DNA from: Leucoraja erinacea | Lineage: Eukaryota | Assembly: GCF_028641065.1 (NCBI RefSeq) | Contig: NC_073414.1 | Span: 8,246,001 to 8,310,000, forward strand | DNA: 64,000 bases | Reading direction: 5' to 3' | In this document: one piece after another, positions 12,448 to 58,592 of the stretch | How the letters are laid out: each line of letters begins with the position of its first letter | Numbering within the stretch: the first letter of the stretch is position 1 | Position numbers and translations under genes: made by a program | The notes under the pieces: generated by a model | Told to the model about the DNA's origin: nothing | Databases searched by the model: none | The model's input: only the letters and a program-made list of their open reading frames with translations

Positions 12448-13984
12448 ATGGATATGATGTTGTCAGGCCCCCAGGTCTATGGTGCCAGCTGCCTGCTCTC
12501 TGGCACTGGGGACTTGGTGACCAGGCTGCCCCCCGCCAGGAGCTGCTGCTGGGGACGGGGTGCATTGGGCCCGGCTGAGGACGGGGCCCGGCAGCTGGGG
12601 CCGAGCCAGGAGGCGGTGGGGCCCACCGGCCGTGAGAGGGTGCAGCAAGGTGGCGAGGCAGCACCCGGAGAGGGAGCTCCGGCCGGCGAGGACGCAGAGG
12701 GCGAGTCCTGTCACGGAGCTGGTCTCCTCGCAGAGCTAGAGGGTGGCTCCTGCCATGGAGCAGGTCCCACTGTGGAGGTGGAGGGTTGGCCCTGTCATGG
12801 AGTTTGTCCCCTCGCTGAGCTGGATGATGGGTCCTGTCATGGAGCTGGTCCCCCCCTGGAGGCAGAGGGTGGGTCCTGTCATGGAGGTGGTCCTCCTGTG
12901 GAGCTAGAGGGTGTGCCCTATCATGGAGATAGCCAGGAGAATGGACCCATTGATGGAGCTGGCCTGATAGTGGAGAAGGGGAGGGGGCCCCCTGATGGAG
13001 CTGACCCCAGTTTGGAGGCGGTTGATGGGCCCTACCGTGGAGCCAGCGGGGAAACTGGTGGCCCCCCTCATGGAGCAGGCCACACCGTGGAGTTACAGTG
13101 TAGGCCCTGTCACGGAGCTGGCCAGCTGGGAGGCCCACGGGACTGTGGTGATGGCGATGGCAAAGATGGTGCCTTTACAGAGGAGATGGAACTCCAGCGG
13201 CGAGAGTGTGCCCGTCGGAGAACCCAGGCGGGCAAAGAGAGCGCGGCGGAAATGAGAGGCGTGTTGAAAACCCATCGCCATGTATCCCGGGAGCTCTCTG
13301 GTCCCATCTCTGTGGCTCCCACAAGGCCGGTAACCATGACGATGGACGCCATTGATGGTCAGGCCTATGGATCCTGGGAGTTCTCCGGTTCCACCTCAGT
13401 TGCTGCCAAAAGCCCAGTAACCACAGCGGTGGGGGCCATGGAGGATCGGGCCTATGTATGCTGTTCCACCTCAGCTGCTCCAAAAGGCCCAGTAACCACG
13501 GCGATGGGTGCCATGGAGGATCGGGCCTATGGATCCTGTTCCACCTCAGCTGCTCCAAAAGGCCCAGTAACCACGGCGATGGGCACCATGGAGGATCGGG
13601 CCTATGTATCCTGTTCCACCTCAACTGCTCTAAAAGGCCCAGTAACCACAGCGATGGGGGCCATGGAGGATCGGGCCTATGGATCCAGGGAGTTCTCCGG
13701 TCCGACCTCAGTTGCTCCCACAAGCCCAGTAACCACGACGACGGCCCCCGGGCCTGACATCGGGCTCCGGGAGGACCAGAGGCCCGAGGAAACGGACGAT
13801 GACTTTGGGACGTTCGAGCAGGCGGGGAACCTGGTGGTGTGGGCCGCGGAGGCGGGGCCCGTGTGGCTGGAGGACGAGGATGGGATCGGCGGCTGCGGGA
13901 ACCAGGAGGACAAGGCGCAAGACGGAACGTGGGCACCGTGGCCTGAGGAACTTGCAGAAACTGTACAGCACGGAGCAAGTCACG
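12448..13984 (+). CDS. Aftiphilin/CLBA1-family gene, coding exon 1 (start codon provisional)
   Basis: 512-codon GC-rich open frame. ATG in strong context (gggATGG). Acidic 'DDDFGTF' adaptor-ear-type motif and WAPW. Donor CACG|GTAAAC in phase 1 matches the next exon. Confidence 0.75.
12697..13123 (+). repeat. Coding 42-bp (14-aa) tandem repeat, EGxSCHGAGPxxEL
   Basis: About 10 progressively degenerate copies within exon 1. Confidence 0.85.
13288..13740 (+). repeat. Coding 75-bp (25-aa) tandem repeat, STSAAPKGPVTTAMGAMEDRAYGSC
   Basis: About 5-6 copies; the central ones are nearly identical at DNA level. Confidence 0.9.
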
Positions 13985-14099
13985 GTAAACAGGGGAATCA
14001 ACATTGGAGAGGTGGGGGGGGGGGATAGAACATAAAACAGTACCGCACAGGGAACTTCGGCCCACTATGTTCAGTTTAGTTTATGATTGTCATGTGTGT

Positions 14100-30400: not shown

Positions 30401-30485
30401 CGGTTGACGCGGCTTGTCGTCAGAATGGGTTAGGAGTTGAGAGCGGCGTCAGTGGGTGGGATCCGGAGGCGGGGAAGAAGCAGCA

Positions 30486-30803
30486 ATGGTGGTGAAACAT
30501 GTAGTGGACGCCAAGCAGCTCCAGCACCTGTTCAGCCAGACCGAGAACCTGGTGGCGGTCATGTACTCTGCCGAGTGGTGCAACAACTGCCGCATGATCC
30601 GCCCGCACTTCTACAACCTGGCCGAGCAGATGCCCAACGTGACCTTCGTGGAGGTGGACGTGGACGACGCCGAGCCGCTGGCCCGCTCGGCCGGCATCAC
30701 CTGCATGCCCACCTTCCACTTCTTCAAGCGCTCCACCAAGATGGGCGAGTTCTCGGGGACCAAGAGGGACAAGCTGGAACATCTGATCGATGAGCTGCAG
30801 TGA
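30486..30803 (+). CDS. Intronless thioredoxin-like protein 1 (105 aa, WCNNC)
   Basis: Colinear with vertebrate cytosolic TXN over its full length (W-CxxC..I.P.F..L....NV.F.EVDVDD...CMPTF.FFK...K.GEFSG..K.KLE..I.EL). Kozak gcaATGG. Intact stop. AATAAA at 30924. Confidence 0.9.
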   Translation: MVVKHVVDAKQLQHLFSQTENLVAVMYSAEWCNNCRMIRPHFYNLAEQMPNVTFVEVDVDDAEPLARSAGITCMPTFHFFKRSTKMGEFSGTKRDKLEHLIDELQ

Positions 30804-40962: not shown

Positions 40963-42168
40963 GGATTATAGATATTCCAGGTTTTTGTCGCTGTAATTCT
41001 TTGCCCCGGTTCTATTCTGAGCCTGGATTGTGCCCGTAAAACAATGCCAATGCAAGTTTCCACAAAGGTGGTAGAGCTGCTGCCTCACGTTCGCCAGGGA
41101 CCCGGGTTCGATCCTGACCACGGGCGCTGTGTCTGTGTGGAGTTTGCACGTTCTCCCCGTGACCTGCGCGGGTTTTCTCCGGGTGCCCCTGTTTCCTCCC
41201 ACACTCCATAAGGCCGACAGGTTAATTGACTTGGGTAAAATTGTCAATTGTCCCTAGTGTGTGTAGGGTAGTGTTACGAACATTCTGCTAGTTTGAAGGG
41301 AGGGGGAAACTCGGGAGAATTCGTGAAAAACCTCGGGAAAGTGGGACAGGCCCTTCGGCGTGGGCCGAAGAGCCTGTTTCTGCGCTGTATCTAAAATCAA
41401 ATCATTTCTTTGTACCTACTTTCCAGACGTCCCTCCTTGGTCTAAACTTGTTTTTATTTGGGTCCTCCCATTCTCTCCACCAACAAAGTCCCTCGGCTGC
41501 CGAGGACGTTTCAGACGTTTGAGAGACCAGATAGACAGGATCAAATATCTTACTCCGCTCTAAGATCTTCGGACAGGATGTTTTTCGCTCCTTGCTGGAT
41601 CTTTCAGGCTCTGAACCGCTCCCTTCCCCTCCCGAGAGTGGGTGGCCCGCTCCGAGGAGAGGTTGGTGTGGGTGTAGGTGGAGGAAGGAACCGCAGAGGC
41701 TGGGTTAAACCGAAGGTAGATATTGCTAAAAGCTGGAGTAACTCAGCGGGACAGGCAGAGAAGGAATGGATCCACCAATGGGTCCACTCAGCCCGAAACG
41801 TTGCCCATTTCCTTCGCTCCATAGATGCTGCTGCACCCGCTGAGCTTCTCCAGCTTTTTTGTGTACCTTCGATTTTCCAGCATCTGCAGTTCCTTCTTGA
41901 GCACCAATTCCTTCTCTCCAGAGATGCTGCCTGTCTCGCTGACTGGGTTACTCCAGCTTTTAGCAGTGTCTATAGGTTCTTTGGTGTGTGTCTATGTTCG
42001 GGTGAGGTTCAACGTGTGTAATTCGTTCTGTTGATACCAGAGGTGGTGATGTACAAGAGTTGGACTTGGTTTGCAATGACGGCCCTGGACGTCACTATCG
42101 GCTAGAGGTTGCACCAGGGGGCAGCCCGGGGACGTGGACATTGCACAAAGTGTTACCATCGCGGCAGG

Positions 42169-42489
42169 ATGGTGTTGAGACCCATCAGGACCAGGCGGCA
42201 GCTCGCCACGCTGCTGGAGGAGGAAGAGGAGTCCCTGGTGGTGGTCTTCTTCGGGGCCAAATGGTGCAACAACTGCGCTAGCATCAAACCCTACTTCAAG
42301 ATGAAATCCGACCAGAACCGCGACGTCATCTTCGCCGAGGTGGACGTGGATGAGTCGGAGGATTTGGCCAGGGCTGTGGGCATCACCTGCATGCCCACCT
42401 TCCACTTCTATAGATGCCAGGAGAAGGCTGGAGAGTTCTCTGGGACCAAGAGGGAGAAATTGGACCGCCTGATAGCGCAGTTGAAATAA
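42169..42489 (+). CDS. Intronless thioredoxin-like protein 2 (106 aa, WCNNC)
   Basis: Full TXN-fold sequence 'LVVVFFGAKWCNNCASIKPYF...VIFAEVDVDESEDLARAVGITCMPTFHFY...GEFSGTKREKL'. ATG in aggATGG. ATTAAA at 42518. Confidence 0.9.
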   Translation: MVLRPIRTRRQLATLLEEEEESLVVVFFGAKWCNNCASIKPYFKMKSDQNRDVIFAEVDVDESEDLARAVGITCMPTFHFYRCQEKAGEFSGTKREKLDRLIAQLK

Positions 42490-43363: not shown

Positions 43364-45925
43364 TAACTCAGCGGGACGGGCAGCATCTCTGGAGAGAAGG
43401 AATGGGCGACGTTTCGGGTCGGGACTCGAGACCCTTCTTCAGTCGCCCGAGATTCTACATAAGGATATCTGGGGCACCAGGGCCAATTAAACTAACACAT
43501 CCAGATGTGAGGGAGGATTCAGGGGTCACAATCAGAATGGGCGAACTCCACACAAGGTAGGTATCCGAGGTAAGGATTGAACCTGGGTCACTGCGGTTGT
43601 GAGGCGGCAACTCTCCTGGGCAGCCCCTTGCACATAGACTCGCATTTCACAGACTTGTACCCAGGGAAGTCTGTGCAGATTCTTTGAAAGCCATTCATTA
43701 GTTATAAGTTGTAGAAACAAAGAACTGCAGATGCTGGTTTATACCAAAGATAGACACAAAGAGCTGGAGTAATTCAGCCGGTCAGGCAGCATCTCTGAAG
43801 GAAAGGAATAGGTGACATTTTGGGTCGCGACCGTTTGTCAGAATTCATGAACTATTTGCAAGTTCTCGCTCCTTTCCACTAAAGTCTTTTTTGTTTATCC
43901 ACTCTAAGCTAATATCTAGATTCCATTCTGAAAGCTACTACAGGCAGTGGATGTCAGACGTTAACTTGCAACATTCTCTGGCAAGAACCAAAACGCTGAA
44001 AGACCTCAGCCGGACAGTATCGGTGGAGGGAATGGGACAAGCAACGTTTCGGGTTGGGACCCTTCTTCTGTTTTTTTCACACAGAGAGTGGTGAATCTCT
44101 GGAACTCTCTGCCACAGAGGGTAGTTGAGGCCAGTTCATTGGCTATATTTAAGAGGGAGTTAGATGTGGCCCTTGTGGCTAAGGAGATCAGGGGGTATGG
44201 AGAGAAGGCAGGTACGGGATACTGAGCTGGATGATCAGCCATGATCATATTGAATGGCGGTGCAGGCTCGAAAGGCCGAATGGCCTACTCCTACTCCTAA
44301 TTTCTATGTTTCTATGTTTCTATGTATGATTGAGGAGAGGCGAGACAACTGTGGGGGGGGGGGGGGGGGGGAGATAGGTTGGGGCAAGAGGTAGATAGCA
44401 AGTGACAGGTGGATCCAGGTGAGGAGGGTGGGGAAAATAAAATAATTAAAATGGTGAAATCTGAAAAGGAAGGAAAGTGGGGAATGAAATGTAGACAATA
44501 GGCAATAGACAATAGGTGCAGGAGTAGGCCATTCGGCCCTTCGAGCCAGCACCATCATTCAATGTGATCATGGCTGATCATCCCCAATCAGTATCCCGTT
44601 CCTGCCTTCTCCCCACATCACCTGACTTCACTTTCTTTAAGCCCTATCTAGCTCTCTAGTGAAAGTATCCAGAGAACCGGCCTCAGACTAACACAGGTCT
44701 CTGTGAGAAAAAAAGTGTTTCCTCATCTCCGTCAGTCCATCAGTCTTTTCAGTTGAGTTGAGTTGAGTTTATTTTCATGTGTCCATGTGTACAGTGAAAA
44801 GCTTTTGTTCAACTGAACCATAGGGAGGGATAGTGGGTACAAGGGAATGTGTGTGTTGTGAGGAGGGAGAGAGAAGAACAAATGAAGACCTGGGTAGGAA
44901 GATGAGCAGACGGGGAGGTAGATGAAGGGAGCTAGAGTCAGGAAACATGTTACTGATGTTGGGGGAGTCCAGAACCAGGGGCCACAGTTTGAGAATAATG
45001 GGGAAGGCCATTTATAAAGTAGAGGAATAACTTTTTCACCCAGAGAGTTGTGAGTCTGTTGAATCCTTTGCCTCAGAAGGTGATGGATGACAATTCTCTT
45101 GATGCTTTCAAGAGAGTTTGATAGAGTTCTTACAGACAGCAGAGTCGGGGCATATGGGGAGAAGGTAAGAACAGCGAACTGATTTTGGATGATCAGCCAT
45201 GATCACATTGATTGTGGTGCTGGCTCGAAGGGCCGAATGGCCTACTCTTGCACCTATTGTCTATTGAAAGGAATGGGGTGATGGGGCAGGAGGAATGGAA
45301 ATTAAGTTGTGTGCAGGTGAGGAGAAGGTGAGAGGTGGGGGGTTACATAAGGTTGGATATGTTGCAATGTTGATGCCATTGTGGAGTAGCCAAAGCACAA
45401 GCAAAATATGAGACGCTGTCCTTTCAGCTTGTGCGAGGCCCCATTCTGAAACATTTTGGAAGCCGAGGACATGTTCGATGATTCACTGCAAAATGTTTTG
45501 GAAGAATTGTATGATTTTAGAATACCTGCTTCTTAATTTCGAATACAAAAACACTGTGTTTGTGCAGCGTAGAGTTGCTGCCTCACAGCGCCAGAGACCC
45601 AGGCTCGATCCTGACAATGAGTGCTGTCTGTGCGACTTTTGTACCTTCTCCCCTTGACTGCGTAGGTTTCCTCCATGTGCTCTGTGTCCTCCCACATTTC
45701 AAAGACGTGCAGGTTTGTAATTTCTCAGCATATTGTAATTGGCATCTAAATTGCCCCTGGTGAGAGACATGCACAATAGGCAATAGACAATAGGTGCAGG
45801 AGGAGGCCATTCGGCCCTTCGAGCCAGCACCGCCATTCAATGTGATCATGGCTGATCATCCCCAATCAGTACCCCGTTACTGCCTTCTCCCCATATCCCC
45901 TGACTGCTATTTTTAAGAGCCCTAT

Positions 45926-46664
45926 CATTGAGGATAAATGGGGATACTGTGGATAGGGTGAGCGGTTTTAAATACCTGGGAGTCCACATCTCTGAGGATA
46001 TGACATGGACATCACACGCCGCAGCACTCGTGAGTAAGGCAAGGCAGCGCCTTAACCACCTTAGGCAATTGAGGAAATTCAGAGTGTCTCCGAGGATCCT
46101 CCAGTGCTTCTACTCAGCGGCTGTGGAAAGCATCTTGTCCAGAAATATTACCATCTGGTTTGGGGATTGCTCTGCCCAGGACAAGAAGGCTCTGCAGAGA
46201 GTAGTGCGTTCAGCCGAACGCACTATGGGAACTTCACTCGCCCCCCTGCAGGAACTATACATCAGAAGGTGCAACTCCAGAGCAAATAAAATCATGGGAG
46301 ACCCCTTCCACCCCTGCAACGGACTGTTCCAGCTGCTATGGTCAGGCAAACGCCTCCGTTGCCATGCTGTGAGAACGGAGAGGTTGAGAAGGAGTTTCTT
46401 CCAAGCGGCCATTAGGACTGTAAACTCCTATCTCACCAGGGACTAACTTTACTGAACCACTCTACTGCTTTTTTTTTATTTGCTGTCCCTTAATTTTCCC
46501 TTTTTCCTTCCGCCCACAATACTTAATATGTAAAATATGTGATTCTGTTTGTAGTTTGTTTGTTTGTTTGTTTTGTTTGCACAAAGTCCGCGAGCATTGC
46601 CACTTTTCATTTCACTGCACATCTCGTATGTGTATGTGATGAATAAACTTGACTTGACTTGACT
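45926..46664 (+). mobile_element. Rex1/Babar LINE 3' fragment inserted in a CR1 fragment
   Basis: ORF 45928-46446 'FKYLGVHISEDMTWTSH...KARQRL..LRQLRKF...ESILS..ITIWFG'. (CTTGA)n tail. The host 'gagccctatc|tagctctctc' is split. Confidence 0.88.
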
Positions 46665-49072: not shown

Positions 49073-50000
49073 TTAGTATTTTATTGCATATCCTTTGCAT
49101 GCAATGACTGCTTGAAGTCTGTGATTCATGGACATCACCAGTTGCTGGGTGTCTTCTCTGGTGATGCTCTGCCAGGCCTGTATTGCAGCCACCTTTAGCT
49201 TATGCTTGTTTTGGGGACTAGTCCCCTTCAGTTTTCTCTTCAGCATATAAAAAAACATGCTCAATTGGGTTCAGATCAGGTGATTGACTTGGCCACTCAA
49301 GAATTTATCATTTTGTAGCTTTAGCAGTATGTTTGTGATCATTGAACCACTAGCCAATGAGTTTTGAGGCATTTGTTTGAACTTGAGTAGATAGGATGTG
49401 TCCATACACTTCAGAATTCATTATGCTACTGCCATCAGCAGTTGTATCATCAATGAAGATAAGTGAGCCAGTGCCTTCAGCAGCCATACATGTCCAGGCC
49501 ATATCACCTCCACCACCAGCGTGTTTCACAGATGTTATGCTTTGGATCTTGGGCAGTTCCTTCTCTCCTCCATACTTTGCTCTTGCCATCACTCTGATAT
49601 AAGTTAATCTTCGTCTCATCTATCCACAAGACATTTTTCCAGGTCATCCTATTTTTGCAGCTAACCAGTGGTTTGCATCTTGCAGTGTAGCCTCTGTATT
49701 TCTGTTCATGAAGTCCACACCTGACTCCTGAAGAGTGGTTTCGATCTGTTGGACAAGTGTTTGGTGATTTTTCTTTATTATAGAAATAATTCTTCTGTCA
49801 TCAGCTGCGGAGGTCTTCCTTGGCCTGCCAGTCCCCTTGCAATTCACAAGCTCACCAGTGCTCTCTTTCTTCTCAATGATGTTCCAAACAGTTGATTTTG
49901 GTAAGCCTATGGTTTGGCTGATGTCTCTAACAGATTTATTCTTGTTTCTCAGTCTCATAATGGTATCTTTGACTTTCATTGGCACAACTTTGGCCCTCAT
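49073..50000 (-). pseudogene. Tc1 transposase pseudogene
   Basis: Fragments 'MRAKVVPMKVKDTIMRL..ISQTIGLPKSTVWNII..GRPRKTS', '[20 protein letters not shown]' and 'QAWQSI..LVMSMNHRLQAVIACKGYAIKY' lie in different frames. Confidence 0.88.
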
Positions 50001-50899
50001 GTTGATAAACAGCAATAAAAGTTTCCAAAGGTGATGGAAAGACTGGAGGAAAGACTAGGTGCTGAGAGCTCTCTTATACCTGCATTAAGGAGGCATTTAA
50101 ACACACCTGAGCAATTACAAACGCCTGTGAAGCCATGTGTCCCAAACATTATGGTGCCCTGAAATGGGGGGACTATGTTTAAACACAGCTGTAATTTCTA
50201 TATGGTGAAATAAAAATGTATAAAAATGGCCTTTATTGAAATGCCCGTCGGAAACCAGCACCACTGGGTCACAAATGTTTTGAACGATTTAATAATAATA
50301 ATAATAATAATAATTTATTAAAATCTATCAATGTGTACTTTAACCACATGTGATTTTTTTTTTCTATTACAAATCTCAAATTGTGGAGTACAGAGGCACA
50401 TAAATAAATGACGGGTCTTTGTCCCAAACATTATGGAGGGCGCTGTAAGTCTGAAAAACAGCAAAGAAATTCAGACCTGAAAAAACTGGTTCGCCTGCTC
50501 CGATCGCGGGAGAATAAAGAGGAAAGAAGTTGGACTTTATTGCCTTCCATCACAGTGAGGAACGTGAGGAATACGCTGTGATGGATGTTTATTTAACTTT
50601 TATGTAGTTCAAAGGTTTCAAATGTCTTTTATTGTCACGTGTACCAATTAAGGTACTGTGGCGGCTTTTGTGCCTCTGGTTCTGGGGGGGGGGGTCCTGT
50701 GGCGGCTCCTAAGGGTCGTCCCATTATACTGCCGAACCCCTCGGCACAGGAGTGGTGCAGTCCGGAGGCGGTCCTTAGCCGGAGGGTATAAAAGGCAGGG
50801 TTTGGGTGCCATCTTTTCCTGGTTTCGTCTTCCCCTGAACCGGGAGGAATTAAAGTAAAGTGCTTCTCAAACTTCGGACTACTTGCCTCATTTTGAGAC

Positions 50900-52920: not shown

Positions 52921-55084
52921 TATCCAGAGTAGCTCGATTCATTATGAACATTGCTGCCTAGAATCAGAATCTACTCAAGATACGATTGCTCAGTTTGACC
53001 CGCGGACTTCGTTTCTTGAGGTTAGTAAAGTTAGTAAAGTACATTCACCAAGCCAAGATTCTCCCAGCAGATGTAGTCAGTGGCTAAACACTAAACGCTC
53101 AAAGGTAAGATGAAAGATAACTGCTGTTCTTGGAACGATTTGGTGTGCATTGAAACTTCACGTGTGTGGCCACTGAAGAAGGAAAGACAACAGCGACTAA
53201 GTGGGAGGGATGAGATTGACTGGAACAACAAGAGCTTTGCCGCACATATATATGCCACACTTGGTCAACCACAACTTGCAGCTAGATCCTTTAATATCGT
53301 AAAGGATTCAATAAATTGAATAAATAATAAATAATGGTTGACAAGTGGGGGTTAATGTTTGTCTATTGCTTTACAATTGTTTACTTATGTTTGGTTACTT
53401 AATATATGAAGTTTGTATGTGTATAATAGTTGTATGTATATATATGTCTGTAGGTATTATGGGAAATTGCCTGGGGTATTATTATTAATTAATTGCTCCA
53501 TAACAAATTTGATTTTTAAATATGGTAGAAGTGTTGGGGAAAAGTGGTGAGATTTAATAAGTTATTCTTCTTCTCACTCCTTTTCGAGCTTGTACAGACA
53601 CAGAGTTGGACATTGGAAATTTGCTTTTTGTTCTTTTCATTGCTTATAAATATTGATTGTAATGTCCAATTGTTTGATAATTTCGATTTTGTTACTATTA
53701 ATGTCTTTAATGTTTTTACTTGTTCGGAATAAATAAAATAAATAAACAAACAGATAAATAAATAAATAAATAAATGATCCACAAATAAATCAAGCAAAAT
53801 TTCACCCATTCCTTCTCTCTAGAGATGCTGCCTGTACCGCTGAGTTACTCCAGCTCAGATGGGAGATGGGTGTATGGAACAAGCTGCCAGAGGAGGTAGT
53901 AGAGGCAGAGACTATCCCAGCGTTTAAGAAACAATTAGACAGGTATATGGGTAGAACAGGTTTGGAGGGATATGGACACCGCAGACCGGTGGGACTAGTG
54001 TAGCTGGGACATGTTGGATGGTGTGGGCAAGTTGGGCAGAAGGCCCTGTTTCCGCACTGTATCGCTCCATAACAAACTGTATGGATACCGTTCTGCATTG
54101 CATCCCAATTGCTCTTCCAAATAGACACAAAATGCTGGAGTAACTCAGCGAAACAGGCGAGACTCATCTCTATCCAGAGATGCTGCCTGTCCCACTGAAT
54201 TACTCCAGCATTTTGTGTCTATCTTCGGTGTGTAACCAGCATCACGTACAGTTCCTTCCTACACAAATTACTTGTCCAAAATGCACTGTAATTCACAATG
54301 TAATACGCGAGTTTAGAAACAGGCCCTTCGGCCCACCGGGTCCGCGCCGACCAGCGACCCCCGCACATTAACGCCATCCTACACCCACTAGGGACATTTT
54401 GTTTTACATGTACCAAGCTAATTAACCTACAAACCTGTACGGCTTTGGAGTGTGGGAGGAAAATCGAAGATTTCGGAGAAACCCACAAAGATCATGGGGA
54501 GAGCGTACAAACTCCGTAAAGACAGCACCCATAGTCGGGATCAAACTCGGGTCTCCGGCGCTATCAGGCAGCAACTCCACCGTGACCGAGTTATAATCGA
54601 TGTGACATATCTGCATCTCCTGAGTTACCTTTGTCTTTCACAGCCTGGGCTCGCCGCTGACCTCTCACCCGCCGTCTCCGGCCACCATCTTAACGCTCGC
54701 TGGTCTCCACGACGAAGCCATGTCACAGTGGGAGGGGGGGGGGGGTGGGGGAACGGAGCAGCCGCACGTGCGCAGGCCCAGGCCCGGCTAGTTCCCGCTT
54801 GTCTGTCCTGCGCCTGGGATGAGGCGGGAAACCTCAGGATCTGGTGACCCGACACCAGCGCACACTCGCCCTAGTGTCACCCCCCCTCCTTGCCCCAAGA
54901 GGCTGACTGACCGCACCAATGATTCACCTTCAACCAGTCCAACTCGACAGGTCACGGCTCCCTCATCTTTTTCACTGGCACCTCCAACGGGACCCCACCA
55001 CTGGCCACATCTACCCATCTCCACCCCTCTCTGCTTTCCGCAGAGACCCCCTCCCTCCATAACTCCCAGTCCAACTCGTCCCTT

Positions 55085-55690
55085 CCCACCCAAACCAGCC
55101 CCTCCCCGGGTACTTGCCCCTGCAACCTGCGGCAGGAGATGCAACACCTGTCCCTTTACCTCCCCCTCCCTCGACTCCATCCAAGGATCTAAACAGTCTT
55201 TCCAGGTGAAGCAGAGGTTCACCACCACCTCCTCCAACCTCATCCACTGTTCTAGGTGTGGACTCCTGTATATCGGCGAGACCAAGTGCAGGCTCGGCGA
55301 TCGTTTCGCTGAACACCTCCACTCAATCCGCCTAAATCTTCTGGTGTCCCAGCACTTCAACTCCCCCTCCCATTCCCACACTGACCTTTCTGTCCTGGGC
55401 CTCCTCCACTGTCAGAGTGAGGCCCAGCGCAAATTGGAGGAATAGCACCTCGTATTTAACTTGGGTGTGAACATTGACTTCTCTAACTTCAAGTAACCCT
55501 TGCTTTCCCTCTCTCTCCATCCCCAGTTCTCCCACCTGTCTGACCGTCTCCAACTACATTCAATCTCTGTCCTGCCAACTCCCATGCCATCAGCTTGAAG
55601 AAGGGTCTCGACCCGAAACATCGCCCATTCCCTCTCTCCAGAGATGCTGCCTGTCCCGCTGAGTTACTCCAGCATTGTGTGTCTACCTGC
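55085..55690 (+). mobile_element. Penelope-like element GIY-YIG endonuclease remnant plus terminal repeat
   Basis: 'CGRRCNTCPF...SSNLIHCSRCGLLYIGETKCRLGDRFAEH', with a premature TAG at 55443. Confidence 0.85.
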
Positions 55691-55811
55691 AGAAGTCAAG
55701 GCGCCTTTCTTTCATTAAAATCGACGCGGGGGGGGGGGGGTGGAAGGTAGGAACAGGCCGCCTCACGGACAAGGTTCTAGTTTCATTCATTGTGCGGTTT
55801 TAGCAGTGGAA

Positions 55812-56492
55812 TTGGGCCTGAGGGTGACGTCACAGGGGCGGCAAGGGGGCCTGTGCGTGACGTCACAAGGGGGCAAGTGGGCCTGCGCGTGATGTCACAG
55901 GGGGGCAAGAGGGCCTGCGGGTGATGTCACAGGGGGGCAGACGGGAGGGAAGTGGGGCCTGAGCGTGATGTCACAGGGGGGCAAGAGGGCCTGAGCGTGA
56001 TGAAGAGGGCCACGTCACAGGGGGCAAGAGGGCCTGTGCGTGACGTCACAAGGGGGCAAGAGGGCCTGCGCGTGATGTCACAGGGGGCAGACGGGAGGGA
56101 AGTGGGGCCTGAGCGTGATGTCACAAGGGGGCAAGAGGGCCTGAGCGTGATGTCACAAGGGGGCAAGAGGGCCTGAGCGTGATGTCACAGGGGGGCAAGA
56201 GGGCCTGCGCGTGACCTCACAAGGGGGCGGGCCGGAGGGAAGTGGGCCTGCGCCTGACGTCACAAGGGGGCGGGCCGGAGGGGAGTGGGCCTGCGCGTGA
56301 CGTCACAAGGGGGCGGGCCGGAGGGAAGTGGGCCTGCGCGTGACGTCACAACAAGGGGGCGGGCCGGAGGGAAGTGGGGCCTGAGCGTGACGTCGCGGGG
56401 AACGGGCGGGGCGGAAATGTCCATGCGCCTGACGTCACAAAGGGCGTGGCGGCGGAAGCGGGGCCTGCGCACGACGTCACAAGGGGGCCTGG
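55812..56492 (+). repeat. GC-rich minisatellite (~31-45 bp units, core gggcctg(a/c)gcgtga(c/t)gtcaca(a)ggggg) forming the upstream region of thioredoxin-like gene 3
   Basis: About 17-18 tandem units; 7 perfect TGACGTCA and ~7 TGATGTCA. Proximal units add GGGGCGG and GGAAGT. Confidence 0.9.
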
Positions 56493-56549
56493 TTGGGCCG
56501 GGCCGGGCAGCACCGGCGGGGCGGAAGTGATCCGGACCGAGCCGAGCAC

Positions 56550-57164
56550 ATGGCGGGGGCGGGCAGCACGCTGGGCAAGCCCAAGAAGGGGCAGGGCAAG
56601 AGTGCGGAGAAGATCGCCACACAGAAGGGGCCGGCGGGCACGGCGGGAACGGCGTCGTCGACAGTGGCGGCAGCCGCGTCCCGCTCTCCCGACGCCGGCA
56701 CTTCCCGCGGCAAAGCGGGCAAAGCTCCTCCTCCGCCCAAGGCCGAGTCGCTGCCGGCCACCAAGAGCGACGAGGCGGCCAAGGCCCCGAAGGCGGCGGA
56801 GAAGACGGCGCCAGAGCCGGTGGCCAAGGCAGGGGAGGGGGTGCCGCTGAGGAAGATCAGCAGCAAGACTCAGCTGGACAAGTTCATCAAGGACGCGGGC
56901 GAGAAGCTGGTGGTCATCTTCTTCTCGGGCACCTGGTGCGAGACGTGTCAGAGCCTCAAGCCATACATGAGGGAGATGGCCCAGGTGAACACCAACGTCG
57001 TCTTCTTCTGTGAGGTGAACGTGGACGATTCGGAGGACACGGCAGAGGCTTGCGACATCGTGCACATCCCCACCTTCCAGTTCTACAAACAGGGGAAGAA
57101 AATAGCCGAGGTGCAGGATGACAACAAGGCATCGGTAGAGGACAAAATCAAGGAATTGAAGTAG
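56550..57164 (+). CDS. Intronless thioredoxin-domain protein 3 (204 aa; Lys/Ala/Pro-rich N-terminal tail, WCETC)
   Basis: C-terminal ~105 aa is colinear with TXN ('KISSKTQLDKFIKDAGEKLVVIFFSGTWCETC..LKPY..EVNVDD..CDIVHIPTFQFYKQGKKI'). Lies in a CpG-rich region. AATAAA at 57435. Confidence 0.9.
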   Translation: MAGAGSTLGKPKKGQGKSAEKIATQKGPAGTAGTASSTVAAAASRSPDAGTSRGKAGKAPPPPKAESLPATKSDEAAKAPKAAEKTAPEPVAKAGEGVPLRKISSKTQLDKFIKDAGEKLVVIFFSGTWCETCQSLKPYMREMAQVNTNVVFFCEVNVDDSEDTAEACDIVHIPTFQFYKQGKKIAEVQDDNKASVEDKIKELK

Positions 57165-58114
57165 ACGTTTCTCTTAAGTAAACACCCCCCCCCTTATATG
57201 TCATTAGAATTAATTCTGATTCAGAAACGTTCACTCGAGTGTTGCTTATTTTACGTGCAGCCAAACCCAACTACATTGAACGCTCCACAACCTCCTCTTC
57301 AAAGCATCAATGGAGTGGAACCAAACCTCCCATTAAGATTCAAGGCGAGGTGTTCGCTATACCGTGAGACTGTGCCCAAATAACTTTTTTTTCAGACATT
57401 GAGAACGTGAGAATCGGCATCGATTAGACATTGCAATAAACTGTCATTGCTCATCATAATCATTGCTTCTCTCCAAACATATTGCACAGAGAAAAGGTCA
57501 AGTTTTTCTCTTCCAAGACCGATTGGTAAAGAAAATGGTTTCTGCTTTCTTTGTCTCGCCATCTGTCACTGTACAGACCCCACTAGCAGGGTCAACATGA
57601 GGATTTCTCAACCCATCTTTTCTGTATATATTGTGTTAAATCTGCAAGGTACAGTAAATGGTGGCCAGGGCATATTAGAAAAGACATTCATTCTTTACAA
57701 TATTTCTGTGGGATTGGGTATTTTGCTACACATTACTTGTTAGATATTTATTTCCAGAGATAAATATTAAATTATTTTTTTATTGGAGATAGATAATTCA
57801 GTTTGTTCCTATCTGGAATATAAATAGAAACATCTTCGTCATATCTGATGGAAGATATTCTCATAAAATATACTCTAGATTGCATTATTATATAGTGAGG
57901 CAAGAATGGGTGAATTTGTACCATCCTCTATCCTATTATTGCATCAGTAATTAGTATGACAACATTCCTACTTAGACCAGTTTTGATTAAAGTTTTTAAT
58001 TTAAAATATTCAGATGCTTCTCTCTCGTCTGTGTGTACCAGAACTACTCCCCCTATCTTCAACTTCACACAGCAAGTTCTCATGCAGTCATAGTTTCAAT
58101 ACCTTCCATTTTAC

Positions 58115-58592
58115 AATAGACAATAGGTGCAGGAGTAGGCCATTCGGTCCTTTGAGCCAGCACCGCCATTCAATGTGATCATGGCTGATCATCCTCAATC
58201 AGTACCCCGTTCCTGCCTTCTCCCCATATCCCCTGACTCTGCTATTTTAAGAGCCCATCTAGCTCTCTATTGAAAGCATCCAGAGAACCTGCCTCCCACC
58301 ACCCTCTGAGGCAGAGAATTCCACACTCACCACTCACTGTGAGAAAAAGTGTTTACACGTCTCCGTTCTAAACGACTTACTCCTTATTCTTAAAACTGTG
58401 GTCCCTGGTTCTGGACTCCCCCAACATCGGGAACATGTTTCCCACCTAAACCCTTAACAATCTTATATGTTTCAATTAGATCCCCTCTCATCCTTCTAAA
58501 CTCCAGAGTGTACAAGCCCAGCTGCTCCATTCTCTCAGCATATGACAGTCCCGCCATCCCGGGAATTAACCTTGTAAACCTACGCTGCACTG
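58115..58592 (-). mobile_element. CR1/HER1-type LINE 3' fragment
   Basis: 'VQRRFTRLIPGMAGLSYAERMEQLGLY...' and caataga tail. Confidence 0.88.

What the first reader, a model, noticed from the sequence alone, without database searches (positions are those of the whole stretch)
55812..56549. Promoter apparently built from a minisatellite of CRE, GC-box and ETS motifs
Seen: ~680 bp of tandem units ending ~60 bp before the gene 3 ATG. They hold 7 perfect TGACGTCA palindromes (55825, 55858, 56041, 56255, 56298, 56341, 56430) and ~7 TGATGTCA variants, all in the distal two-thirds. Proximal units carry GGGGCGG and (C)GGAAGT. Established: TGACGTCA binds CREB/CREM/ATF, and CREM drives post-meiotic spermatid genes. 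Inference: a retrogene gained a strong promoter by VNTR expansion of a transcription-factor module, so copy number could tune expression. A CRE-like GGACGTCA also lies ~80 bp upstream of gene 2.
Basis: partly seen in the sequence, partly recalled or inferred. Interest (0 to 1): 0.7.

Follow-up and report, generated by a model that had tools for sequence, protein, structure and literature searches.

The report
Repeated promoter of skate sperm thioredoxin
In a skate genome, a short on-switch sequence in front of an old thioredoxin gene has been copied about 19 times; the gene's shark counterpart is found in sperm, but nothing yet shows that the extra copies raise its output, and such repeated switches are already known from human genes.

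Summary
There are 19 tandem units (55815-56485), 7 with TGACGTCA and 7 with TGATGTCA, ending 64 bp before the ATG of an intronless thioredoxin in a skate. The spermatid link gains support: the catshark orthologue is in a published sperm proteome, and RNA-like contigs begin 8 bp before the ATG and do not enter the array. The 'retrogene gained a promoter by VNTR expansion' story is weak. The gene is conserved across sharks and rays, and its two paralogues carry unrepeated half-CRE pairs at the same distance from their ATGs. So the array is best read as amplification of an existing promoter module. The proximal units form a CpG island (o/e 0.99) and are nearly unchanged in two other DNA data sets. 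The distal units are CpG-decayed (0.53), mostly lack the GC box, and carry the weaker CRE variant. Unit order differs between genomes. Polymorphism, factor binding and a dosage effect are untested. It works like the human TRIB3 promoter VNTR: a new member of a known kind.

The parts
55815..56201 (+). Distal array: 12 units, mostly 32 bp (two of 43-44 bp, one split pair). 3 perfect CREs, 7 TGATGTCA, a GC box in only 1 of 12 units. CpG-depleted.
   Evidence: (CpG o/e 0.53)
56202..56377 (+). Four near-identical 43-47 bp units (87-98% alike), each with a CRE core (3 perfect, 1 TGACCTCA) and GGGGCGG; GGAAGT in 3 of 4
56378..56485 (+). Three older, diverged proximal units (TGACGTCG, TGACGTCA, CGACGTCA; GC boxes; CGGAA). 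Present in order in DNA runs X15 and X18.
   Evidence: 64-77% to other long units
56486..56549 (+). Non-repeated tail with GGGGCGGAAGTG (GC box overlapping a canonical ETS site, 56518-56529); likely start region and short 5' UTR
   Evidence: X1 contigs begin at 56542; no difference listed at 56518-56529 in X15 or X18; compatible with the A. radiata translation
56550..57164 (+). Gene 3: intronless thioredoxin-like ORF of 204 aa, with a basic Ala/Lys/Pro/Gly-rich N-extension and a WCETC active-site motif
   Evidence: (PF00085, 2e-18)
57435..57440 (+). AATAAA polyadenylation signal; X1 contigs end at 57460
42169..42489 (+). Gene 2: intronless thioredoxin-like paralogue of 106 aa, WCNNC
42077..42094 (.).
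30486..30803 (+). Gene 1: intronless thioredoxin-like paralogue of 105 aa, WCNNC
30405..30422 (.). TGACG-N8-CGTCA half-CRE pair 81 bp before the gene 1 ATG

Best explanation
The array is a tandem amplification of gene 3's own, older proximal promoter module (CRE core + GC box + ETS-like GGAA). SHOWN: the position, the unit anatomy, the CpG gradient, the age of the gene, and the sperm presence of the shark orthologue. INFERRED: a single CRE about 80 bp before the ATG was ancestral in this three-gene cluster. It triplicated early (the diverged units at 56378-56485). A 43-bp unit then expanded, and a shortened 32-bp derivative spread distally by slippage or unequal exchange, helped by G-quadruplex-prone G runs. 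The proximal ~350 bp act as an unmethylated CpG-island promoter where CREB-family bZIP dimers (CREM-tau in spermatids, by analogy with mouse), Sp/KLF and ETS factors start transcription just downstream of the array. The distal units were methylated in the germ line at least at times. One or two C-to-T events there gave the weaker TGATGTCA, which duplication spread, so these units add at most modest activity. The extra copies probably boost output but did not create the promoter.
For: (1) X1 contigs tile 56542-57460 with no joints and zero depth on both flanks, which DNA runs X15 and X18 cover. This is the pattern of a one-exon mRNA starting after the array, though contigs cannot fix a start. 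(2) The orthologue A0A401PZS9 (scyTo_0016843) is listed in the spermatozoa sheet, not the seminal-plasma sheet, of PMC11083954 Table S2. About 20 of about 230 rows in the part I read had a higher aquarium mean (counted by eye). (3) Orthologues occur in 8 named sharks and rays among 9 hits, in a 100/100 clade, and the cluster has consecutive locus tags in S. torazame. (4) Half-CREs lie at -81/-68/-39 (gene 1), -92/-79 (gene 2) and -75 (gene 3). TGACG-N8-CGTCA occurs twice in the window, before genes 1 and 2, against 0.013 expected per spacing, 21 spacings scanned. (5) CpG o/e is 0.99 proximal and 0.53 distal. PMC1796609 describes TGATGTCA as the deamination product and a lower-affinity CRE, and finds CREs enriched within 150 bp of vertebrate starts. 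(6) X15 and X18 keep the three proximal units with no listed change at the 56430 CRE or at 56518-56529, and in X18 the last unit's core is a perfect CRE. (7) 7 of 23 top-strand G4 patterns in the window fall in 55932-56507.
Against: No binding, methylation, start-site or reporter data exist. The A. radiata RefSeq model begins at the ATG matching 56417, so that annotation places transcribed sequence inside the last units, and its translation reads E-V-T where the 56430 CRE would give D-V-T, so that CRE is not perfect there. Gene 3 lacks the TGACG-N8-CGTCA pair of its paralogues, and its upstream DNA aligns weakly with gene 2 (4 of 300 shuffles as good) and not with gene 1 (131 of 300); the N8 pair was found after the fact. 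The sperm evidence is from a shark whose upstream DNA I could not see, and a 535-protein sperm pellet also holds housekeeping proteins. The gene 1 and gene 2 orthologues were not found in that table. [quoted passage not shown] The distal array in other genomes was not examined directly.
Confidence: 0.55

Rival explanations
1. Neutral passenger. The array was seeded from the promoter, but only the last one or two units and the GC/ETS tail work. The rest is an unstable G-rich minisatellite with no effect on expression.
For: Distal CpG decay and GC-box loss. The CRE's central C is the most variable core position, T in 7 of 17 aligned units. The 56430 CRE is imperfect in A. radiata. Other GC-rich minisatellites occur in the window. 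PMC3486850 links G4s to minisatellite instability (title and abstract start in the search listing only).
Against: Unit pieces upstream in X15 and X18 that could be laid still carry intact CRE cores, although the laid stretch favours such units. Multiplying a bZIP site raised activity stepwise at TRIB3 (PMC7425993). Four full CRE-type plus GC-box units lie within 350 bp of the ATG in a CpG island.
Confidence: 0.27
2. First reader's strong version. A retrogene with no effective promoter acquired one by VNTR expansion, and copy number is a selected dial for CREM-driven spermatid expression.
For: Intronless CDS. Sperm presence of the orthologue. Many CREs with Sp1 sites, which matches mouse CREM loci (PMC3091680). 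Different unit order between genomes. CpG-free CRE variants are reported as enriched in testis promoters (PMC2853129).
Against: The gene is conserved across sharks and rays, so it has long been expressed. The paralogues carry CRE-type sites without repeats. No within-species length variation was shown.
Confidence: 0.12
3. The unit comes from a dispersed satellite, a transposon or a viral LTR enhancer, or it serves another transcription unit such as a divergent gene starting near 54600-54850.
For: The whole genome could not be searched. A GIY-YIG retroelement-like fragment and a SINE-like repeat lie 0.1-0.9 kb upstream. An unexplained CpG-rich patch sits at about 54500-54850.
Against: There is no second copy in the 64-kb window and no match in viral contigs. 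The array grades into single-copy DNA that abuts the ATG. No host-gene exon was found among 231 translated unique segments (139 of 168 minus-strand; 92 plus-strand, 91 of them from the 169 listed).
Confidence: 0.06

Closest known systems
Human TRIB3 promoter 33-bp VNTR (PMC7425993; abstract and Discussion read)
   Same: A bZIP-factor site in a proximal promoter, multiplied by a 30-45 bp tandem repeat in one lineage and single-copy elsewhere (here: single-copy in the paralogues).
   Different: TRIB3 has 1-5 identical copies of a C/EBP-ATF site with proven polymorphism and dosage effect. This array has 19 mixed units with CRE, GC box and ETS-like sites, a CpG-decay gradient, and no functional or population data.
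Vertebrate CpG-island promoters with CRE, Sp1 and ETS sites, including mouse CREM-bound loci (PMC3091680, PMC3464117, PMC1796609; passages)
   Same: The same motif set, no TATA found in the last 220 bp, CREs within about 150 bp of the likely start, and the TGATGTCA variant outside the island.
   Different: The module is repeated. It is not the overlapping ETS-CRE CGGAAGTGACG: ETS and CRE are spaced apart.
Mammalian spermatid thioredoxins TXNDC2/Sptrx-1 and TXNDC8/Sptrx-3 (listing only; details recalled)
   Same: Thioredoxin domain, a low-complexity N-extension in gene 3, and sperm presence of the shark orthologue. NCBI names several orthologues 'TXNDC2-like'.
   Different: The active site is WCETC, not WCGPC. 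All close homologues found are cartilaginous-fish proteins. Orthology to TXNDC2 was not tested and the name is automatic.

Membership tests
Functional promoter VNTR (TRIB3 type) | Tandem units of 10-60 bp containing a transcription-factor site | tested here: met
Functional promoter VNTR (TRIB3 type) | Lies directly upstream of the transcription start | tested here: inconclusive
   X1 contigs begin at 56542 and avoid the array, but contigs cannot fix a start; the A. radiata model starts at the ATG matching 56417
Functional promoter VNTR (TRIB3 type) | Copy number varies between individuals | tested here: inconclusive
   Unit order differs in X15 and X18, which are labelled as other organisms; short-read contigs can collapse repeats
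Functional promoter VNTR (TRIB3 type) | Copy number changes expression | not testable with these tools
   needs reporters or paired genotype and expression data
CREM-tau target promoter | Full or half CRE within about 150 bp of the start, often with Sp1 sites | tested here: met
   criterion from PMC3091680
CREM-tau target promoter | Product expressed in haploid male germ cells | tested here: inconclusive
   shark orthologue in a sperm proteome; no stage-resolved or skate testis data
CREM-tau target promoter | CREM occupancy and dependence | not testable with these tools
   needs ChIP or loss of function
CpG-island promoter | GC above 55% and CpG o/e above 0.65 over at least 500 bp | tested here: met
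   300-bp windows from 56101 to 57000 have GC 0.65-0.74 and o/e 0.77-1.03; the distal array (o/e 0.53) fails
Retrogene | Intronless copy of an intron-bearing parent gene | tested here: inconclusive
   CDS is one ORF and X1 contigs show no joints; that vertebrate TXN has introns is recalled, and no parent locus was examined
Retrogene | Young insertion with a poly(A) remnant, target-site duplication and a newly recruited promoter | tested here: not met
   orthologues across sharks and rays and a conserved three-gene cluster show it is old; I did not search for poly(A) or TSD remnants
Dispersed satellite or mobile-element repeat | Copies at unrelated loci | tested here: inconclusive
   none elsewhere in the window or in viral contigs; whole genome not held

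The most novel reading that the evidence does not exclude
The array is a selected, skate-specific dosage amplifier for a sperm redox protein. A CRE module more than 300 million years old was multiplied, and the methylation-proof TGATGTCA/TGACCTCA copies were kept as germ-line-active CREM sites, so that allele length sets sperm thioredoxin level and, through it, sperm quality. Together with the paralogues' TGACG-N8-CGTCA pair, this would point to CRE-driven spermatid transcription conserved from cartilaginous fish to mammals.
Probability: 0.15. Interest if true: 0.65.

Novelty: new member of a known kind. Interest (0 to 1): 0.4.

Why it matters
Promoter repeats that multiply a factor site are a known route to expression change, but proven cases are few and mostly human. 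This locus offers a natural series in one place: two paralogues with an unrepeated CRE module, one with 19 copies, and a gradient from intact to deaminated CRE. It could test whether CRE copy number and CpG loss tune expression, and whether CREM-type spermatid control exists in cartilaginous fish. It also flags a cartilaginous-fish thioredoxin cluster with non-canonical active sites, one member of which is in shark sperm. I found no paper on that cluster.

Tried and rejected
Own-genome search: no genome is held, so dispersal of the unit is untested outside the window. Viral origin: 0 matches to a 20-nt unit pattern in viral contigs. Rfam: 0 matches in 53500-58500. RNA run search: no RNA holder is on record as RNA; 14 holders are guessed to be RNA, and only X1 of these was laid. 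Single-cell run X23: about 1 in 100 of the run was read (17.6 million records) and no read fell on the gene; the tissue is unknown and reads may be filtered, so this is not used as evidence. X-linkage: the small contig sizes suggested it, but the orthologue contigs of Mobula hypostoma (135.9 Mb), Carcharodon (30.05 Mb) and Hemiscyllium (30.04 Mb) fall outside the X size ranges in bioRxiv 2025.02.26.637739 (its Table 2 and supplements were not seen), so I dropped it, without excluding it. Upstream extension of the ORF: the ATG at 56417 is out of frame and closes after 37 codons in this genome, and all other gene 3 orthologues aligned start at MAGAG. Divergent host gene: Pfam found only a transposase HTH piece and an ALKBH8_N match among 231 segments. 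Literature: no elasmobranch or CRE-unit minisatellite case among the 20 papers listed of 708; 0 papers with all five CRE-VNTR terms; 0 papers naming six orthologue accessions. Earlier findings of this scan: none. The first supplement search by locus tag gave 0 because the table uses UniProt ids; it was repeated with those ids.

Full report
OBSERVATION. The array is real. My cut gives 19 head-to-tail units over 55815-56485 (TRF). Cores: TGACGTCA in 7 units at the stated coordinates, TGATGTCA in 7, one each of TGACCTCA, TGACGTCG and CGACGTCA, and one split pair. The last unit ends 64 bp before the ATG at 56550. The copies descend from one another, so seven CREs are not seven coincidences. At unit level, 12 of 20000 shuffles held a CRE and 0 of 20000 held CRE, GC box and GGAAG together. 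The seed unit was therefore very probably a real promoter module. Canonical CGGAAGT occurs once, at 56522, in the non-repeated tail.

THE GENES. The window is skate DNA: its three thioredoxin-like ORFs (30486, 42169, 56550; all plus strand, each a single ORF) cluster at 90% identity with the consecutive Amblyraja radiata proteins XP_032870228, 227 and 226. Gene 3 has a thioredoxin domain (PF00085, 2e-18) with WCETC and a basic low-complexity N-extension. Of 9 hits at E <= 1e-20, one is the window's own protein and 8 are named sharks and rays. All start MAGAG and keep WCETC. The three paralogues form three well-supported clades (27 rows). S. torazame has them as scyTo_0016843, 0016844 and 0016845 on one scaffold, and Callorhinchus has relatives of genes 1 and 2. 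Gene 3 is thus older than the shark-ray split, for which PMC12318234 (passages) implies roughly 300 million years. An ancient retroposition is likely from the missing introns, but the intron-bearing parent is recalled, not examined.

EXPRESSION. In PMC11083954 Table S2 (supplement search and part 3 of 6 read) the gene 3 orthologue A0A401PZS9 appears in the spermatozoa sheet and not in the seminal-plasma sheet. The orthologues of genes 1 and 2 do not appear. This supports a male germ-cell role, but it is a different species, and sperm pellets contain housekeeping proteins. In run X1 (RNA by guess) three contigs tile 56542-57460 without joints, stop 20 bp after AATAAA, and leave both flanks empty, while DNA runs X15 and X18 cover those flanks. 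That is the pattern of a one-exon mRNA with the array upstream. Contigs cannot prove a start or a level, and nothing here shows a strong promoter. Against a start this late, the A. radiata model begins 45 codons earlier, at the ATG matching 56417. In this genome that ATG is out of frame, so I take it as an annotation extension.

POLARITY AND HISTORY. Two units nearest the gene (56378, 56420) are only 64-77% alike to the other long units; the four units at 56202-56377 are 87-98% alike; the distal 32-mers are 85-100% alike. CpG o/e is 0.99 in 56202-56485 and 0.53 in 55815-56201. A GC box survives in 5 of 7 proximal units and 1 of 12 distal units. All seven variants changed in the same direction, which suggests one or two deaminations spread by duplication (inference). 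[quoted passage not shown] The top strand is G4-prone (7 of 23 window patterns).

OTHER GENOMES. I laid only 56331-57750, so the distal array was not compared directly. X15 and X18 (labelled organisms C and D) both carry the three proximal units in order, with no listed change at the 56430 CRE or the GC/ETS tail. X18 differs by 26 letters over about 1350, and its last unit has a perfect CRE. Both have further units upstream in a different order: one X15 piece reads as two short units with intact CREs followed by two 43-bp units, where the window has four long units preceded by TGATGTCA short units. The X18 contig runs 373 letters further upstream. The array is therefore shared among related genomes and turns over. 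Contig collapse limits any copy count, and within-species polymorphism is not shown. Against constraint on each site, the A. radiata translation implies an imperfect core at the 56430 position.

PARALOGUE PROMOTERS. Genes 1 and 2 have no array but have half-CREs at -81/-68/-39 and -92/-79; gene 3's last one is at -75. A half-CRE in -90..-70 arises in 2.6% and 5.3% of composition-matched shuffles. TGACG-N8-CGTCA occurs twice in 64 kb, both times before these ATGs (0.013 expected per spacing; 21 spacings scanned; found after the fact). This suggests that CRE-type control predates the array. Gene 3 itself lacks the N8 pair.

MECHANISM. Best reading (0.55): an existing CRE/GC/ETS promoter module was amplified; the proximal island drives transcription through CREB-family, Sp and ETS factors, probably CREM in spermatids; the distal copies are weaker. 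Mouse CREM sites cluster near -150 and co-occur with Sp1 motifs (PMC3091680, passages). However, consensus CREs are reported as more somatic than testis-specific, whereas CpG-free variants are testis-enriched (PMC2853129, passages), so the motif set alone does not name the tissue. Rivals: neutral passenger (0.27), promoter gained de novo with a selected dial (0.12), dispersed or mobile origin or another gene's element (0.06).

COMPARISON AND VERDICT. It works like the TRIB3 promoter VNTR (PMC7425993, abstract and Discussion), but two defining features, polymorphism and dosage effect, are unproven. I found no report of this locus; the library lacks most subscription journals, and bioRxiv supplements were not seen. 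Verdict: a real, probably functional repeated promoter on an old sperm-associated thioredoxin; a new member of a known kind; interest 0.4.

Noticed in passing
window 30405-30422 and 42077-42094: The spaced palindrome TGACG-N8-CGTCA lies before both short thioredoxin paralogues and nowhere else in the window; it may be a very old conserved cis-element.
   Followed up: partly
window 30486-30803, 42169-42489, 56550-57164: A cartilaginous-fish cluster of three intronless thioredoxins with non-canonical WCNNC or WCETC sites and a conserved N-terminal MAGAGSxLGKPKK in gene 3; I found no paper describing it.
   Followed up: partly
window 54954-55442 (+): Fragment resembling a GIY-YIG endonuclease (atlas score 0.94, family on 40% of cluster members; Pfam itself gave no hit), probably a Penelope-like retroelement remnant (label recalled) just upstream of the array.
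   Followed up: partly
window 54580-54850: Single-copy CpG-rich patch with, on the minus strand, a YY1-like AAGATGGTGG, donor-like sites and a 13-bp stretch matching the start of the last array unit (motif names recalled); no coding exon was linked to it.
   Followed up: partly
window 12448-14028 (+): A 526-aa ORF with internal 42-bp and 75-bp coding repeats and a DDDFGTF motif recalling aftiphilin/CLBA1-type clathrin-adaptor motifs (recalled); no Pfam or NCBIfam hit and no exact database match.
   Followed up: partly
window 49647-50054 (-) and 45904-46443 (+): A Tc1/Sleeping Beauty-like HTH fragment (below the Pfam cut-off) and an ALKBH8_N match that is probably the end of a LINE (inference).
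   Followed up: no
window 56498-56504 and 56536: X15 and X18 share a 9-base insertion relative to the window, and X18 has a 12-base deletion in the likely 5' UTR; both spare the GC/ETS motif.
   Followed up: no
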